A stretch of DNA of 57,226 bases from an uncultured Candidatus Poseidoniales archaeon (GCA_964645485.1 CAZXZO010000010.1:1-57226); one strand, 5' to 3'; counted from the first letter of the stretch, positions 32,564 through 37,901 are shown. The notes: generated by a model from the letters alone, not told the origin. A program made the numbers and translations.

Positions 32564-34029
32564 AATCCGGTTGATCCTGCCGGAGGCGACCGCTATTGGA
32601 GTTCGATTAAGCCATGCGAGTCTAGAGGCTTCGGCCTCGGCGTACCGCTCAGTAACACGTGGATAACCTGCCCTGTTCAGGGGGATAACCTCGCGAAAGT
32701 GAGAATAATACCCCATAGTTCACCATGCCTGGAACGGTTGGTGGATGAAAGCTCAGGCGGAACAGGATGGGTCTGCGGCGTATCAGGTAGTAGGGGGTGT
32801 AATGGACCTCCTAGCCCTCGACGCGTACGGGTTGTGGGAGCAATCGCCCGGAGATGGATTCTGAGACACGAATCCAGACCCTACGGGGTGCAGCAGGCGC
32901 GAAAACTTGACAATGCGAGAAATCGTGATCAGGGAACTCCAATTGTCCCCGTTTTTACGGGGTTCTGAATTGACTCTAAACAGGTCGAGTAATAGGGGCG
33001 GGAAATATCGGTGCCAGCCGCCGCGGTAATACCGAAGCCCCAAGTGGTCGTCGTTCTTATTGGGCCTAAAACGTCCGTAGCCGGTTTGGTACATTCGTGG
33101 GTAAATCAGACAGCTTAACTGTTTGAATTCTGCGAGCACGGCCAAACTTGAGACCGGGAGAGGTGTAGGGTACCTGCGGGGTAGGGGTAAAATCCTGTCA
33201 TCCCGTAGGGACCACCAGTTGCGAAGGCTCTACACTAGAACGGATCTGACGGTCAGGGACGAAGCCTAGGGGCACGAACCGGATTAGATACCCGGGTAGT
33301 CCTAGGTGTAAACGCTGTGGACTTGGTGTTGGGGATTCTCCGAGGATCCTCAGTGCCGAAGCGAAGGTGATAAGTCCACTGCCTGGGGAGTACGGTCGCA
33401 AGGCTGAAACTTAAAGGAATTGGCGGGGGAGCACTGCAACGAGAGGAGCGTGCGGTTTAATTGGATTCAACGCCGGAAAACTCACCAAAGCCGACTGTTA
33501 TATGAAGACCAGCGTAACGAGCTTGTCGGATTTTCAGAGAGGTAGTGCATGGCCGTCGTCAGTTCGTACCGTAAGGCGTTCTGTTAAGTCAGATAACGAA
33601 CGAGACCCCCATCGTCATTTGCTAACCCTTTCTCCGGAAAGGGCGCACTATGGCGAGACCGCTGGCGTGAAGTCAGAGGAAGGCGGGGGCAACGGTAGGT
33701 CAGTATGCTCCGAATGCTTTGGGCTACACGCGCGCTACAAAGGACGGGACAATGGGCAGCTACTCCGAGAGGAGATGCTATCCCGAAACCCGTTCGTAGT
33801 TCGGATCGTGGGCTGTAACTCGCCCTCGTGAAGCTGGATTTCGTAGTAATCGCGTCTCAAAATGGCGCGGTGAATATGCCCCTGCTCCTTGCACACACCG
33901 CCCGTCAAACCATCTTAGTTAGGGGTGGGTGAGGCTACCTTTTATTGGGGTATTCGAGCCTGCCTTTGACAAGGAGGGTTAAGTCGTAACAAGGTACCTG
34001 TAGGGGAACCTGCAGGTGGATCACCTCCT
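32564..34029 (+). rRNA. rrs: 16S rRNA (Marine Group II / Poseidoniales), not linked to 23S or 5S
   Basis: Begins AATCCGGTTGATCCTGCCGGA. Contains GTGCCAGCCGCCGCGGTAATAC, GGATTAGATACCC, AAACTTAAAGGAATTGGCGG and the Eury806 target. Ends GGATCACCTCCT; about 1466 nt. Confidence 0.99.
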
Positions 34030-34090
34030 AAGAACCTCGAAAACGCGGAGGGCAGGGTGCTTCGGCACCCTGTCTTCCCAACTTTTTTTT
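33898..34090 (+). repeat. Left copy of a 193-bp perfect direct repeat (16S 3' end + trailer)
   Basis: Identical base-for-base to 37709-37901 (offset 3811) by manual alignment. Confidence 0.97.
34051..34090 (+). terminator. Hairpin plus T-tract after 16S rRNA
   Basis: GGCAGGGTGC-TTCG-GCACCCTGTC (10 bp including one G-U pair), followed by T8. Confidence 0.75.
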
Positions 34091-34308
34091 CAATTGGAAA
34101 AGCTGACGCAGAAGGGCTGCATAACAAAGCATTCGGATGTGCATTGCAACATGGTGTTACCATAGGCTACGAACCCGCCTAAAACAATTCACTTTCACCG
34201 ATCGATAATGGTTTAGCCATAGAAAAGTGAAGAATTATATTCCAGATAAAATTCATTTCTTTTGAAGATTTCATCAACTTAATATATTAAATGTAAAGTA
34301 GAAAAAAT

Positions 34309-36675
34309 ATGAACAAGATGTTTCACCCAATTATTTTAACAATAATTCTCATTATCACTAATTTGGATGTGAATATGTTTCTTGAACCTAATGAATTGGA
34401 GATTCGCCAGCAATTCAATTACAACAATGATTGGAATTTAGGAAATATCTCTGAAACTGATGAGGTTTCCCAACTCACTCCATCTACTCTATATTATAAT
34501 GGATATGATTCTTCTTGGTTAGAATCATTGAGAACTAATGCACAATCTGGAAAAGTTGTAATTATCGTGAATGATAATTGGACATTAGCATTATCTTCCA
34601 CCCAAGTTCACCCGATTAGTGGCATATGGAATTCTGATGGTAATTTAGAAAGTGACACATTTTCTAACATTGAATTATACTCATTCGTATCTGTGAATCT
34701 TCCAATGGTGAATGGGAATCCTGCAAAAGCAACGTTGTTATGTGTTATTGAAAATACTATTTTATGTAAATTTACAGTTCATCAATTATGGGATGTTGAA
34801 TCTAATTTATACCGTCACGACATAATCATCTCTGAAGGAATAGAAGAAATTAACTCTACTTTTATATTTCAAGAGTTTTGGCTAGATCAGGTGCCTATCC
34901 CTGTAATTAATTGGGATTTGATCCAAAGTGAAGAAGTAAACTGTTTCGAGACCGTCTCTGCTAGTGAGGTTACGTGGGTTGAAGCAGACGGAAATAATGA
35001 ATGGGCAACTGATTGGAGATCAATAATGTGGACTGATGATGATGCATTGTCTCTAATTGATTTTGATACAATGGTGTTAACTGATGAAAATATGCCAGAA
35101 TTTGAACCATCTTGTATTTCAGAATACCCTGATATTCTTGATAATGTCTTTGAAGGTACTTCAATTTATATGCCACTTCTACGTGTATTAATTAAGATAT
35201 CACCTGAAATAAGTTTTAGATATACAAACGGGGATGCTTGGGGGACAATTACTGATCTTTACTACCTTGCCGACTGGTTCTATTACAAAGGAATTGAAGT
35301 AGAATTTGCAGTTCACCTAACATCATTATCATTTTCCGCTACAGACTATCTAGGTAGAGAGAGAACAGCAACATGCAAAAGTCAGCCTTCTTTTCTATAT
35401 AAAGAAATTTTACCAACTCTAGATGATTGGGCTGGGAATTCAAACAGGTATCCTTCAAATGGTCATCGAAAACATAATCAATTCTACGATTCTTTCATCT
35501 ACTTAATTGAACAAGATGAGTACGATCGACCTAATAGTCATGCCTCGGGGTGTATTGGCCAAGCTTATGCTGGTGAACATAAATCAAGTTCGTCTGTACA
35601 ATGGACAGTTTGGTATGAAGAGCAGAATGATCAGATTTCCCCTAATATAATTGGTCCAATCAGTGATTCAAAATCTAATTGGCAGAGGTCATACAACTTT
35701 GCTCATGAAATTCTACATTCACTAGTTCAAAGACAAGGTTTCCTGAGCGGGAGAGATCCTCTACACGATGATGCTCATTATCAATCCGATCCGTGTTCGC
35801 AACATACAGTTGGAGATTCGCGAAATGCATGCTGGGCTTCTCCATTAAATAATGAGAGATATGGTTTCACGACTACAACAAATATTATCGCACTTTCAAA
35901 TGCAATCGCTTGGCTTCCTTATGTTAGGATTAAAAACTTTGGAGTTGGCCAAATTGAAAACACAGTCCACGGATTCAAAATAACTGAGAATCATATTGAT
36001 ATAAGCCTGTCAACGATCACTATTGGAAGCCTTAATTTTGGCGTCGAACATCGAGTCGGACATCCGCTTTGGAGGTACTATTATAGAATCCAAGAAATAA
36101 CTTTGAACTCCTGTACCGGTATTATTCACGAATTATTTGTTGGGGTCCGTGCCTCGGATGTAGTAGGTGGCCAATCATCAAGCTGGACACACGAAGATTT
36201 ATGGCTTGGATATCAGCGTGATGGAGCTAAGGAGTATATTGGAAATGTTGAACAATTTCCTTATGGCTGTCAGGATCATTCAGAACAAATTGATTGGAGA
36301 TTTGACAGTGGGTATATGATGACTGGTTGTGGCGAGGTTTCGCTTGTTCCAGATAATTCAAAGTACTGTGCCGATAAATATGATAGCAATGGAAATCTAA
36401 TCGGATTAAAAACTCCATTGAGAGGATTCCCTGAAATTAACTCATATTTCATGAAGGATTTTGATGGAACTCCCATCTCCGGTAATGGTTATGGCATACA
36501 GGAAGTAATTGTATGGCCTGCTTACAGAATTCAAGATAATGGCCCAATTTATGGTTACTACGAGTGGAGTTCAATTACTTGGCAACAAGTAGAAAGATCG
36601 AGTGGTTATAACCCGTTGGTGTCTCAGCCATTAGTTGGTCAATTTGGGCCAGGTGGAAACACTATTGGAGACTAA
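34309..36675 (+). CDS. Secreted orphan protein, possible zincin metallopeptidase
   Basis: 788-aa ORF, hydrophobic N-terminus, NFAHEILHSL (HExxH at 35704-35718), visibly AT-rich codons. Confidence 0.7.
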   Translation: MNKMFHPIILTIILIITNLDVNMFLEPNELEIRQQFNYNNDWNLGNISETDEVSQLTPSTLYYNGYDSSWLESLRTNAQSGKVVIIVNDNWTLALSSTQVHPISGIWNSDGNLESDTFSNIELYSFVSVNLPMVNGNPAKATLLCVIENTILCKFTVHQLWDVESNLYRHDIIISEGIEEINSTFIFQEFWLDQVPIPVINWDLIQSEEVNCFETVSASEVTWVEADGNNEWATDWRSIMWTDDDALSLIDFDTMVLTDENMPEFEPSCISEYPDILDNVFEGTSIYMPLLRVLIKISPEISFRYTNGDAWGTITDLYYLADWFYYKGIEVEFAVHLTSLSFSATDYLGRERTATCKSQPSFLYKEILPTLDDWAGNSNRYPSNGHRKHNQFYDSFIYLIEQDEYDRPNSHASGCIGQAYAGEHKSSSSVQWTVWYEEQNDQISPNIIGPISDSKSNWQRSYNFAHEILHSLVQRQGFLSGRDPLHDDAHYQSDPCSQHTVGDSRNACWASPLNNERYGFTTTTNIIALSNAIAWLPYVRIKNFGVGQIENTVHGFKITENHIDISLSTITIGSLNFGVEHRVGHPLWRYYYRIQEITLNSCTGIIHELFVGVRASDVVGGQSSSWTHEDLWLGYQRDGAKEYIGNVEQFPYGCQDHSEQIDWRFDSGYMMTGCGEVSLVPDNSKYCADKYDSNGNLIGLKTPLRGFPEINSYFMKDFDGTPISGNGYGIQEVIVWPAYRIQDNGPIYGYYEWSSITWQQVERSSGYNPLVSQPLVGQFGPGGNTIGD

Positions 36676-37303: not shown

Positions 37304-37347
37304 TTAGAACATTCAAAAATACCATTACAACGATATTATGGCTAGTG

Positions 37348-37708
37348 AAGCAAACCTTAAGGCAACCGGATGTTCTTGATATGAGTCGCTTGGAAAGAAA
37401 CTCCTCACCACTTGCTGCCAAGTCGGTATTCCAGACCAGCTTCATGTTGTTGACGCTGATGACTTGAACCTCAGTCACGTCACCTGCTCCGACCCACATA
37501 GACTCAACGCCGTTGTGGGCGGAGAGTGTAGGTGCGAATTCTGAGTGGATTCAAGTCACTATGTTCAATACACCACTCGGGAGATGCGAGGTCTGTAGAA
37601 CTTGGTAGATGTCAGTGGGGGGGAGTTTTTTTTCATGGAGGGCGCGGCAAAAACCGAGTTACCCATGCCGAGCAGGGGGGCGACTAGCCTAGTGAATACG
37701 TGTATGGT
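37348..37708 (-). pseudogene. Decayed C-terminal fragment of an aldehyde dehydrogenase (ALDH16-like, two-domain type)
   Basis: Reconstruction across 2 frameshifts and 2 stops: LVAPLLGMGNSVFAAPS / PTDIYQVLQTSHLPSGVLNIVT*IHSEFAPTLSAHNGVESMW...NNMKLVW...GEEFLSK / THIKNIRLP*G. This matches the ALDH C-terminal pattern (AMGN..V..PSE...TD.YQV..TS..P.GV.NIVTG...KNIW.PYG). Confidence 0.8.
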
Positions 37709-37901
37709 CCGCCCGTCAAACCATCTTAGTTAGGGGTGGGTGAGGCTACCTTTTATTGGGGTATTCGAGCCTGCCTTTGACAAGGAGGGTTAAGTCGTAA
37801 CAAGGTACCTGTAGGGGAACCTGCAGGTGGATCACCTCCTAAGAACCTCGAAAACGCGGAGGGCAGGGTGCTTCGGCACCCTGTCTTCCCAACTTTTTTT
37901 T
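37709..37901 (+). repeat. Right copy of the 193-bp direct repeat: orphan 16S 3' fragment (132 nt) + terminator
   Basis: CCGCCCGTCAAACC...GGATCACCTCCT...hairpin-T tract, identical to 33898-34090. Confidence 0.97.

What the first reader, a model, noticed from the sequence alone, without database searches (positions are those of the whole stretch)
33898..37901. Islet inserted at the 3' end of 16S rRNA, with a 193-bp perfect att-like duplication and no integrase
Seen: 33898-34090 recurs exactly at 37709-37901. The repeat starts within the universally conserved CACACCGCCCGUC decoding sequence (about E. coli C1399) and covers h44, h45, the anti-SD and the terminator. The 3618 bp between copies hold foreign-looking genes, and the 16S gene stays intact. 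Established: integrative elements duplicate the 3' end of their target, but targets are normally tRNA/tmRNA, and rRNA genes are rarely used. Inference: either an element that targets the conserved 16S 3' end with a recombinase supplied in trans, or Campbell-type homologous integration of circular DNA using the most conserved sequence in the population as a landing pad. Either would make the single 16S gene a gene-acquisition hotspot, with the cassette excisable by recombination between the copies.
Basis: partly seen in the sequence, partly recalled or inferred. Interest (0 to 1): 0.75.

Follow-up and report, generated by a model that had tools for sequence, protein, structure and literature searches.

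The report
Gene block inserted behind 16S rRNA
A 3.6-kb block of two secreted-protein genes plus a broken piece of a dehydrogenase gene sits just behind the single 16S rRNA gene of a marine archaeon, between two identical copies of the gene's last 193 bases. Its ends look like an accidental DNA-repair or copying join rather than the work of a mobile element.

Summary
Positions 33898-34090 recur exactly at 37709-37901. This repeat (R) holds the last 132 nt of an intact archaeal 16S gene plus 61 nt of trailer, including the terminator hairpin and T-run.

- **Empty sites:** seven same-genus genomes have the 16S followed directly by the DNA that follows copy 2.
- **Junctions are real:** both new junctions recur, base for base, in contigs from six other metagenome samples, so they are not a one-off chimera.
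- **Order unproven:** every short-read contig stops inside R, or closes into a 3,811-bp loop. Only the window contig shows the integrated order; a free circle or tandem copies are not excluded.
- **No att site:** the cargo's right end is a truncated, frameshifted 3' fragment of a 782-aa aldehyde-dehydrogenase-family gene that sits at another locus in relatives. Its homology stops at the junction with R.
- **No integrase:** the genome's only recombinase hit is a XerA-like gene conserved across the genus.
- **Hotspot:** the 16S 3' flank varies in gene content across the genus, and one relative carries a decayed 290-nt copy of the 16S end.

Best reading: an illegitimate or replicative insertion with target duplication at a flexible-island hotspot. 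The scan has already noted 16S-tail islands, with integrases, in CPR bacteria.

The parts
32564..34029 (+). Complete archaeal 16S rRNA gene. It stands alone, with no 23S, 5S or tRNA gene in the 57-kb window.
   Evidence: Rfam RF01959, model 1-1478, 1467 bits. No tRNAs found.
33898..34090 (+). Repeat R, copy 1: the last 132 nt of the 16S plus 61 nt of trailer with the terminator hairpin and T-run. Its upstream flank is the ancestral 16S body.
   Evidence: It carries a compensatory A...T pair in h44 seen only in this genome among the 12 other same-genus 16S-end sequences aligned.
34091..34308 (+). AT-rich non-coding head of the cargo (34% GC), with a TATA-like stretch about 25 nt before the first ATG.
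   Evidence: No match in 100 relatives. The promoter reading is an inference from the sequence.
34309..36675 (+). p788: a 788-aa ORFan with an N-terminal hydrophobic segment and an HEXXH motif at residues 466-470. Possibly a secreted zinc protease.
   Evidence: No Pfam or NCBIfam hit. It finds only itself among 5.8e9 clusters and 1.84e9 representatives. Motif. The ESM Atlas hints at a reprolysin-like protein (scores 0.89-0.90, a lead only).
36722..37303 (+). p193: a 193-aa ORFan with an N-terminal hydrophobic segment.
37351..37708 (-). Pseudogene fragment: about the last 120 codons of a 782-aa aldehyde-dehydrogenase-family gene, with one frameshift and one in-frame TGA. It is cut off at the junction with R and has 51% GC.
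   Evidence: DNA matches of 77-78% to G002:C14 and G008:C32, and 64-68% to six further genomes (G001, G005, G010, G020, G034, G140), all at loci not next to a 16S. Protein-level match with 1 TGA and a frame change. The alignment shows homology ending at about 37706-37708. Pfam Aldedh for the intact G002 gene.
37709..37901 (+). Repeat R, copy 2: a partial 16S 3' end plus trailer. Its downstream flank is the ancestral DNA that follows the 16S in relatives.
37896..38112 (+). Three 72-nt tandem repeats that begin in the T-run after copy 2. They are part of the ancestral downstream flank.
   Evidence: G011 matches the first 30 nt after copy 2. Copy number differs in contigs L081 and L083.
38171..38590 (-). 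MAPEG-family membrane protein gene, itself variably present at this locus.
   Evidence: Pfam PF01124. Present after the 16S in G011, inverted in G001, and absent in G012, G013, G009 and G015.
39183..41075 (+). p630 surface protein with an LDL-receptor class A module. It is the first widely conserved gene downstream of the 16S in the genus.
   Evidence: Pfam. Synteny in G012, G013, G009, G015, G006 and G005-C25.

Best explanation
This is a real chromosomal insertion, not a self-mobile element. A 3.6-kb stretch of ordinary chromosomal DNA was joined in directly after the terminator of the single 16S rRNA gene. It carries two secreted or membrane-protein genes plus the 3' stub of the aldehyde-dehydrogenase gene that faces such surface-protein genes in relatives.

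The joins are illegitimate, meaning neither homologous nor att-based. The event re-copied 193 bp of the target, so the intact 16S end lies on the left and a spare copy on the right. The most economical mechanism is a single event. One option is repair of a staggered break. The other is replication template switching at the hairpin and T-run terminator of a very highly transcribed gene, with re-entry 193 nt upstream.

The source was either the lineage's own dehydrogenase-linked variable region or that of a related lineage. The site is a flexible-island hotspot: across the genus the DNA right after the 16S holds different surface-protein or transporter genes.

Once formed, the two identical 193-bp repeats can drive loss, amplification or looping-out of the block by the cell's own homologous recombination.

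Shown: the repeat, the empty sites, reproducible junctions, the truncated pseudogene at the junction, the absence of an integrase, and the variability of the locus. Inferred: the mechanism of the join, the source of the DNA, and the behaviour of the repeats afterwards.
For: - The exact repeat and the intact 16S are confirmed.
- In same-genus genomes G011, G012, G013, G009, G015, G006 and G016 the 16S is followed directly by the DNA that follows copy 2.
- The cargo proteins are absent from 60 relatives. Of the cargo DNA, only the dehydrogenase stub matches anything in 100 relatives.
- Both junctions recur at 99.9-100% identity in contigs from six other samples made with three k-mer sizes (31, 123, 141). 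They are L053-L057 and L103.
- The right cargo end is the C-terminal part of a 782-aa Aldedh-family gene, frameshifted and with a TGA. Its homology ends at the junction with at most 1-2 nt of microhomology.
- There are no terminal inverted repeats, and the cargo head does not resemble the DNA after copy 2.
- The only recombinase is XerA-like and conserved across the genus. No resolvase was found.
- Both R copies share a genome-specific compensatory pair, so copy 2 derives from this lineage's own 16S.
- The right boundary of R falls at the end of a 14-bp hairpin plus T-run.
- G005:C12 has a 290-nt copy of the 16S end with three substitutions at positions invariant in the 13 other 16S-end sequences aligned. 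It lies between foreign DNA and an allelic version of the downstream locus. So such duplications do become fixed and then decay in this genus.
- The 16S 3' flank differs between species: a C26 peptidase with an ABC transporter in G001, giant ORFs in G003 and G005, and MAPEG in G011.
- The cargo has no replication gene, which argues against an autonomous circle.
- The index lists a 66,141-nt contig carrying both cargo proteins.
Against: - No read-level or long-read evidence was available.
- Outside the window contig, no contig links the 16S body through R to the cargo, or the cargo through R to the downstream DNA. All of them stop k-1 nt into R.
- One contig (L053) is a closed 3,811-bp loop broken at an arbitrary point, and another (L056) is a loop with a 141-nt overlap. 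Both also fit a free circle or tandem copies.
- The source copy of the cargo was not found anywhere: p788 and p193 are ORFans.
- Template switching and staggered-break repair are not documented for this group. That step rests on general knowledge of such events.
- Perfect identity of the 193 nt beside a decayed pseudogene needs either a recent event or gene conversion.
Confidence: 0.5

Rival explanations
1. Campbell-type homologous integration. A 3,811-bp circle (cargo plus one R) formed earlier in a strain of the same species and entered this chromosome by a single crossover in the 193-bp 16S end. It can leave again the same way, so it acts as an integrase-free cassette that uses the 16S tail as its landing pad.
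For: - The architecture is exactly what one crossover of such a circle would give.
- The R copies are 100% identical and carry the species-specific variant.
- Loop contigs of 3,811 bp occur in two samples.
- The cargo is identical in six samples.
- rRNA genes are proposed homologous-recombination anchors for a surface-property island in SAR11 (PMC2217521).
Against: - The circle itself needs a prior illegitimate join between 16S position ~1399 and the middle of the dehydrogenase gene. That requires a precursor genome with the cargo natively behind the 16S.
- In the relatives that have that gene, it lies on contigs other than the one carrying the 16S, where one is assembled. The model therefore needs two rare steps instead of one.
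- De Bruijn loop contigs arise from the integrated form too.
- No other cargo bounded by the same R was seen.
Confidence: 0.22
2. Assembly ambiguity. The chromosome has the empty site (16S-R-downstream), and the cargo plus R exists apart from it, as a free circle or at higher copy number. The assembler threaded the loop into the contig once.
For: - R (193 nt) is longer than the k used in the short-read assemblies, so the graph has two ways in and two ways out in every sample.
- L053 is an unbranched circle.
- MEGAHIT contigs at this gene can be chimeric: L058 fuses an archaeal 16S to a bacterial rRNA operon.
Against: - The cargo has no replication or partition gene and ends in a dead gene fragment. 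A non-replicating circle cannot persist at 100% identity across six samples.
- The window's assembler resolves other near-identical repeats of up to 586 bp inside contigs, so it used pairing or long-range information.
- The islet contig was binned with the host in another catalogue, and a 66-kb contig carries the cargo.
- G005 shows a decayed, clearly genomic copy of the same kind.
Confidence: 0.2
3. A site-specific integrative element whose attachment site is the 16S 3' end, moved by a tyrosine or serine recombinase encoded elsewhere or since lost. This is the pattern this scan noted for CPR bacteria.
For: - Direct repeats made of the 3' part of a stable-RNA gene, with the gene left intact, are the hallmark of such elements (established knowledge).
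- Earlier scan notes describe integrase-bearing islands at 16S tails in CPR genomes.
- The genome is only 82% complete.
Against: - There is no recombinase in the cargo, and the only one in the genome is the conserved XerA-like gene.
- Extra integrases in G009, G011 and G013 lie on contigs other than the 16S contig.
- The cargo's right end is a truncated host-type gene, not an element terminus.
- The decayed copy in G005 starts 98 nt further upstream (33800 against 33898).
- No inverted repeats and no viral-contig match.
Confidence: 0.05

Closest known systems
SAR11 hypervariable region HVR2, a low-GC cell-surface island flanked by the sole 23S and 5S rRNA genes, which were proposed as homologous-recombination sites (Wilhelm et al. 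2007, PMC2217521)
   Same: A variable, low-GC block of surface or exposed-protein genes abuts a single-copy rRNA gene in a streamlined marine planktonic microbe. Gene content at the site differs between close relatives.
   Different: Here the anchor is the 16S 3' end in an archaeon, and the block is only 3.6 kb. It is additive: it sits in front of the older variable genes and is bracketed by a 193-bp duplication of the rRNA end. HVR2 has no such duplication, and it contains an integrase.
Additive flexible genomic islands and integrase islands at tRNA/tmRNA 3' ends, for example the repeats of the last 20 nt of tRNA-Lys before islands in Methylophilaceae (PMC10872708), and tycheposons
   Same: The 3' part of a stable-RNA gene is duplicated on either side of added genes, the gene is kept intact, and relatives show empty sites.
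   Different: The target is an rRNA gene and the repeat is about ten times longer. There is no recombinase, and one cargo end is a truncated housekeeping-type gene. That points to an illegitimate join rather than att recombination.
Islands at the 16S rRNA tail of CPR/Patescibacteria noted earlier in this scan (e1-1543706, e1-4487487, e1-1189784, e1-1328277; AI notes, not checked here)
   Same: Foreign, AT-rich gene blocks sit directly behind the 16S and are flanked by copies of the 16S tail and trailer.
   Different: Those cases are bacterial, duplicate only about 12 nt of the 16S plus trailer, and are reported with integrases in related genomes. This one is archaeal, duplicates 132 nt of the 16S, and shows positive evidence against an att-type end.
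Templated insertions with flanking duplication from replication template switching or staggered-break repair (FoSTeS/MMBIR-type events; general knowledge, mostly from eukaryotes and E. coli)
   Same: A kilobase-scale piece of DNA from another locus is inserted with little or no junction microhomology. It is flanked by a duplication of the target, and one breakpoint lies at a hairpin and T-run where forks or polymerases stall.
   Different: This is not demonstrated in this lineage. The template copy was not found, and the mechanism is inferred from the architecture alone.

Membership tests
Integrase-mediated integrative element at the 3' end of a stable-RNA gene | Direct repeats made of the duplicated 3' part of the target gene, with the gene left intact | tested here: met
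   193-nt exact repeat and a full-length 16S.
Integrase-mediated integrative element at the 3' end of a stable-RNA gene | A tyrosine or serine recombinase encoded in the element, or a dedicated one in the genome | tested here: not met
   None in the cargo. The genome has one XerA-like gene, shared by 17 of 20 genus genomes, and no resolvase. The genome is 82% complete.
Integrase-mediated integrative element at the 3' end of a stable-RNA gene | Element ends are defined att arms, not broken host genes | tested here: not met
   The right end is a truncated, frameshifted aldehyde-dehydrogenase gene fragment whose homology stops at the junction.
Integrase-mediated integrative element at the 3' end of a stable-RNA gene | Empty target site in relatives | tested here: met
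   Seven same-genus genomes.
Flexible genomic island anchored on a conserved rRNA gene (SAR11 HVR2 type) | Lies directly beside a single-copy rRNA gene | tested here: met
   It begins at the 16S terminator.
Flexible genomic island anchored on a conserved rRNA gene (SAR11 HVR2 type) | Different gene content at the same site in close relatives | tested here: met
   G001 has a peptidase and an ABC transporter, G003 a >1274-aa ORF, G005 a 2237-aa adhesin, G011 MAPEG, and others p630 directly.
Flexible genomic island anchored on a conserved rRNA gene (SAR11 HVR2 type) | Low GC and cell-surface or exposed products | tested here: inconclusive
   GC is 35-37% against 45%. There are N-terminal hydrophobic segments and an HEXXH motif, but both proteins are ORFans with no confirmed fold or location.
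Flexible genomic island anchored on a conserved rRNA gene (SAR11 HVR2 type) | Spread between strains by homologous recombination in the conserved flanks | not testable with these tools
   Needs population reads or several closed genomes of the species.
Autonomous small plasmid or virus carrying a host rRNA fragment | Replication initiator or capsid genes, and occurrence apart from the host | tested here: not met
   No such domains and no viral-contig match. In the four samples that could be checked, the islet co-occurs with host contigs.
De Bruijn-graph loop artefact | Only graph paths, not reads or pairs, support the integrated order | not testable with these tools
   Reads are not available. 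All independent contigs end inside R. The window's assembler resolves other 586-bp repeats.

The most novel reading that the evidence does not exclude
The block is one of a class of integrase-free cassettes in these archaea. Any DNA that becomes bracketed by copies of the 16S 3' end can loop out as a circle by ordinary homologous recombination. After uptake by another cell, it can re-enter at that cell's 16S end. The most conserved sequence in the population would then work as a universal homology 'att' site that feeds a surface-protein hotspot. The decayed 290-nt copy in G005 would be an older cassette boundary of the same kind.
Probability: 0.15. Interest if true: 0.8.

Novelty: new variant of a known kind. 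Interest (0 to 1): 0.45.

Why it matters
This case shows an rRNA gene end used as the edge of a gene-gain site in an abundant marine archaeon. The duplication is long enough (132 nt of the 16S) to matter in three ways.

- **Genome plasticity:** the repeats allow loss or amplification of the block by the cell's own recombination.
- **Assembly and binning:** the repeat breaks contigs, and six assemblies left the block as an orphan 3.7-3.9-kb contig or as a false 'circle'.
- **16S-based surveys:** the spare copy contains the region bound by universal reverse primers near position 1492 (from general knowledge of primer sites). Primers placed downstream of position ~1399 would therefore see two targets.

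It also warns against reading every RNA-gene-end duplication as an integrase footprint. Here the truncated gene at the junction points to an accidental join. If the population-level cassette reading were right, it would give a simple, enzyme-free route for gene exchange in organisms that carry very few mobile elements.

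Tried and rejected
- **Residual 16S upstream of copy 2:** the 'GTGAATACG' there looked like 16S, but the alignment scores are no better than shuffles. The motif belongs to the dehydrogenase gene.
- **Terminal inverted repeats, or similarity between the cargo head and the DNA after copy 2:** none.
- **A known RNA family in the cargo:** only sub-threshold snoRNA-like noise. 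The GC-rich 405-nt tail folds well (z = -3.8), but it is explained as a coding-gene fragment.
- **Leader-trailer processing stem that includes R:** nothing convincing.
- **Metagenome-wide scans for p193 relatives and for the junction sequence:** both returned nothing, probably because near-identical records are withheld. The viral-contig scans were also empty.
- **First look-up of the MAPEG protein:** it failed because I gave the wrong coordinates. It was repeated correctly.
- **A wider survey of 400 genomes of the order for second copies of the 16S end:** apart from this genome and G005, the partial hits I checked (16 contigs) lie at contig ends, or are 16S genes with internal gaps.
- **Structure prediction of p788:** not run. 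There is no alignment to support it, and the Atlas model has a pLDDT of 0.32.
- **The protein Y next to the decayed copy in G005:** it has no relative in 40 genomes, so it could not place that contig.

Full report
**1. Observation**

The window is a whole 57,226-nt contig (C10) of a 55-contig, 1.94-Mb, 82%-complete assembly. Positions 33898-34090 and 37709-37901 are identical over 193 nt, and this sequence occurs nowhere else in the assembly.

Rfam finds a complete archaeal 16S at 32564-34029 and a partial hit at 37709-37829 that covers model positions 1346-1467. There is no 23S, 5S or tRNA gene in the window.

The repeat, called R here, starts at CCGCCCGTCA. It runs through the 3' strand of h44, through h45 and the anti-Shine-Dalgarno end, then through 61 nt of trailer. 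It ends at a 14-bp GC-rich hairpin followed by a T-run. Upstream of copy 2 there is no residual 16S similarity beyond chance.

**2. Empty sites and the locus**

I fetched the DNA after the 16S in same-genus genomes.
- In G011 the 16S is followed by the sequence that follows copy 2, then MAPEG, then the 630-aa surface protein.
- In G012, G013, G009, G015 and G006 the 16S is followed almost at once by the 630-aa gene.
- In G016 it is followed by the MscS region.

Copy 1 therefore keeps the ancestral left flank and copy 2 keeps the ancestral right flank. A segment of 3,811 nt (3,618 nt of cargo plus one R) has been added.

The site is variable in its own right.
- G001 has a C26 peptidase and an amino-acid ABC transporter operon after its 16S.
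- G003 has an open reading frame of more than 1,274 aa.
- G005 has a 2,237-aa PKD/Big_9/cadherin-like adhesin that shares its N- and C-termini with the 630-aa family.
- MAPEG is present, absent or inverted, depending on the genome.

This matches the pattern described for SAR11 HVR2. That region is a low-GC surface island flanked by rRNA genes, which were proposed as recombination anchors (PMC2217521).

**3. Are the junctions real?**

Exact-protein look-ups found the cargo on contigs from six other samples: L053, L054, L055, L056, L057 and L103. All are 99.9-100% identical to the window. All contain one or both new junctions, R to cargo head and cargo tail to R. They come from assemblies with k = 31, 123 and 141. 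A junction with no shared k-mer cannot be a graph artefact, so the two junctions exist in DNA.

The order of the pieces is not independently shown.
- 16S-side contigs reach only 123 nt into R (L060) or break at the start of the 16S (L059, L061, L062).
- Downstream-side contigs mostly stop with the last 123 or 141 nt of R (L081, L083-L085); L082 reaches only 18 nt into R.
- L103 is 123 nt of R, then cargo, then 123 nt of R.
- L056 is a loop with a 141-nt overlap.
- L053 is a closed 3,811-nt loop cut at an arbitrary place.

Such loops are expected from the integrated form when the tangled 16S side and the tandem-repeat side are pruned. They also fit a free circle or tandem copies.

Four points favour integration.
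- The window's assembler carried other near-identical repeats of up to 586 bp inside contigs.
- The cargo has no replication functions.
- The index lists a 66,141-nt contig with both cargo proteins.
- L053 is also part of a binned genome catalogue.

One caution: L058 shows that MEGAHIT can fuse this archaeal 16S to a bacterial rRNA operon.

**4. What the cargo is**

p788 (34309-36675) and p193 (36722-37303) have N-terminal hydrophobic segments, and p788 has an HEXXH motif. They have no Pfam or NCBIfam family. Neither has any relative other than itself in the word-indexed search of 5.8 billion clusters, and p788 also has none in the exhaustive search of 1.84 billion representatives. The Atlas feature search leans to reprolysin-like metalloproteases, but only at lead level. 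GC is 35-37%.

The key result concerns the last 358 nt of the cargo (37351-37708, 51% GC).
- They match, at 77-78% identity, the 3' end of a gene in G002:C14 and G008:C32. They match at 64-68% in six further genomes (G001, G005, G010, G020, G034, G140), always away from the 16S.
- That gene is a 782-aa aldehyde-dehydrogenase-family protein read on the opposite strand.
- The window keeps only about its last 120 codons, with one frameshift and one in-frame TGA.
- In the three-way alignment the homology runs to about 37706-37708 and stops where R begins, with at most one or two shared bases.
- The 'GTGAATACG' that looked like 16S is part of this gene.

In G002 the dehydrogenase gene faces a 1,212-aa ORF (no Pfam hit for the whole ORF; a 460-aa C-terminal sub-ORF gave a sub-threshold Big_9 match) at the end of a roughly 7-kb stretch with no counterpart in this genome. 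The conserved left flank of that stretch matches contig C44 of this genome, and C44 ends exactly at that border. This genome has no intact ortholog of the dehydrogenase, only paralogs at 42-44% identity.

The cargo is thus a slice of a dehydrogenase-linked variable region, cut inside the gene.

The stub is relatively closer to G002 and G008 (78%, against 71% for the ribosomal-protein and SecY region). It is relatively farther from G010 and G001 (67%, against 73-76%). This hints at a donor lineage other than this one, but it rests on a single short pseudogene.

**5. Recombinases**

The assembly has one tyrosine recombinase. It scores best against the archaeal XerA model and has a counterpart in 17 of the 20 other genus genomes. 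No serine recombinase was found. Additional integrases in G009, G011 and G013 lie on contigs other than their 16S contigs. There are no inverted repeats at the cargo ends.

**6. A second, older case**

G005:C12 carries a 290-nt copy of the 16S end plus trailer that starts at the equivalent of 33800. It is preceded by DNA unique to that genome and followed by the giant adhesin.

This copy has three substitutions at positions invariant in all 13 other 16S-end sequences aligned. One lies in CCGCCCGTCA and one in GATCACCTCC, so it is a decaying spare copy rather than an assembly product. The working 16S end of that bin lies on C25, in front of the conserved downstream genes, and the 16S body lies on C13. 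C12 therefore comes either from a co-binned strain or from a stacked arrangement. That could not be settled.

Among 400 genomes of the order, no further clear two-copy case was found; the partial hits checked lie at contig ends or are gapped 16S genes.

**7. Mechanism**

Both R copies carry an A...T compensatory pair found only in this genome among the genus sequences aligned. The duplicated piece is therefore this lineage's own.

One junction is a break inside a gene. The other lies at the end of the terminator T-run. There is no recombinase and no att-like end. The simplest account is one illegitimate event at the 16S terminator that inserted the 3.6-kb piece and re-copied 193 nt. This could be repair of a staggered break, or a replication template switch with re-entry upstream. 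This step is inference.

The alternative is a preformed circle that entered by one homologous crossover. It gives the same picture, but it needs an earlier illegitimate event in a genome where the cargo already lay behind the 16S, and I found no such genome.

Whichever made it, two identical 193-bp repeats are ample substrate for homologous deletion, amplification or looping-out. That behaviour is inferred, not observed.

**8. Comparison and novelty**

Islands bracketed by the 3' end of a stable-RNA gene are well known for tRNA and tmRNA (for example PMC10872708). rRNA-flanked variable islands are known from SAR11. This scan has already noted integrase-linked islands at 16S tails in CPR bacteria (unchecked notes).

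Three things are new here:
- the setting in an archaeon;
- the length of rRNA duplicated;
- positive evidence that the join was not made by an att-specific enzyme.

I rate it a new variant of a known kind, of moderate interest. The main open point is read-level proof of the integrated order.

Noticed in passing
window 37896-38112 and 38690-38962: Three 72-nt and three 91-nt tandem repeats flank the MAPEG gene. Metagenome contigs L081 and L083 carry one copy fewer of each, so copy number varies in the population.
   Followed up: partly
L058 (ERZ27249630 k141_1166443), about 13980-17563: A chimeric MEGAHIT contig. This archaeon's ribosomal-protein operon and 16S body run into a bacterial 16S 3' end, a bacterial 23S and a 5S. 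It is a caution for any 16S-linked contig from these samples.
   Followed up: yes
L052 (G049:C44) 3204-4757: The 16S gene of this same-order genome is 1,554 nt long. It has about 100 extra nucleotides between the equivalents of window 33936 and 33946, at the tip of h44. This could be an expansion or an insertion.
   Followed up: no
L067 (G124:C8) 2224-3501: This 16S gene lacks about 186 nt between the equivalents of window 33487 and 33777. It is either a deletion or a misassembly.
   Followed up: no
G000 contig C44 (6,159 nt), right end: The contig ends exactly where the conserved left flank of the dehydrogenase-linked variable island ends in G002:C14. This genome has no intact ortholog of that 782-aa gene. 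The native locus may be rearranged or unassembled.
   Followed up: partly
G000 C1:137767-138352 and 142762-143347; C11:3269-3622 and C14:44089-44442: Other near-identical repeats in the assembly: 586 bp at 99.1% within one contig, and 354 bp at 98.3% between two contigs. Their nature was not examined.
   Followed up: no
L100 (G002:C14) 11756-14104, minus strand: The 782-aa aldehyde-dehydrogenase-family protein has a full Aldedh domain at residues 41-487, plus a C-terminal extension of about 290 aa that gives a second, partial Aldedh match. This is an unusual layout.
   Followed up: no
window 29839-31758: SecY is 639 aa, and the Pfam SecY match begins only at residue 165.
   Followed up: no
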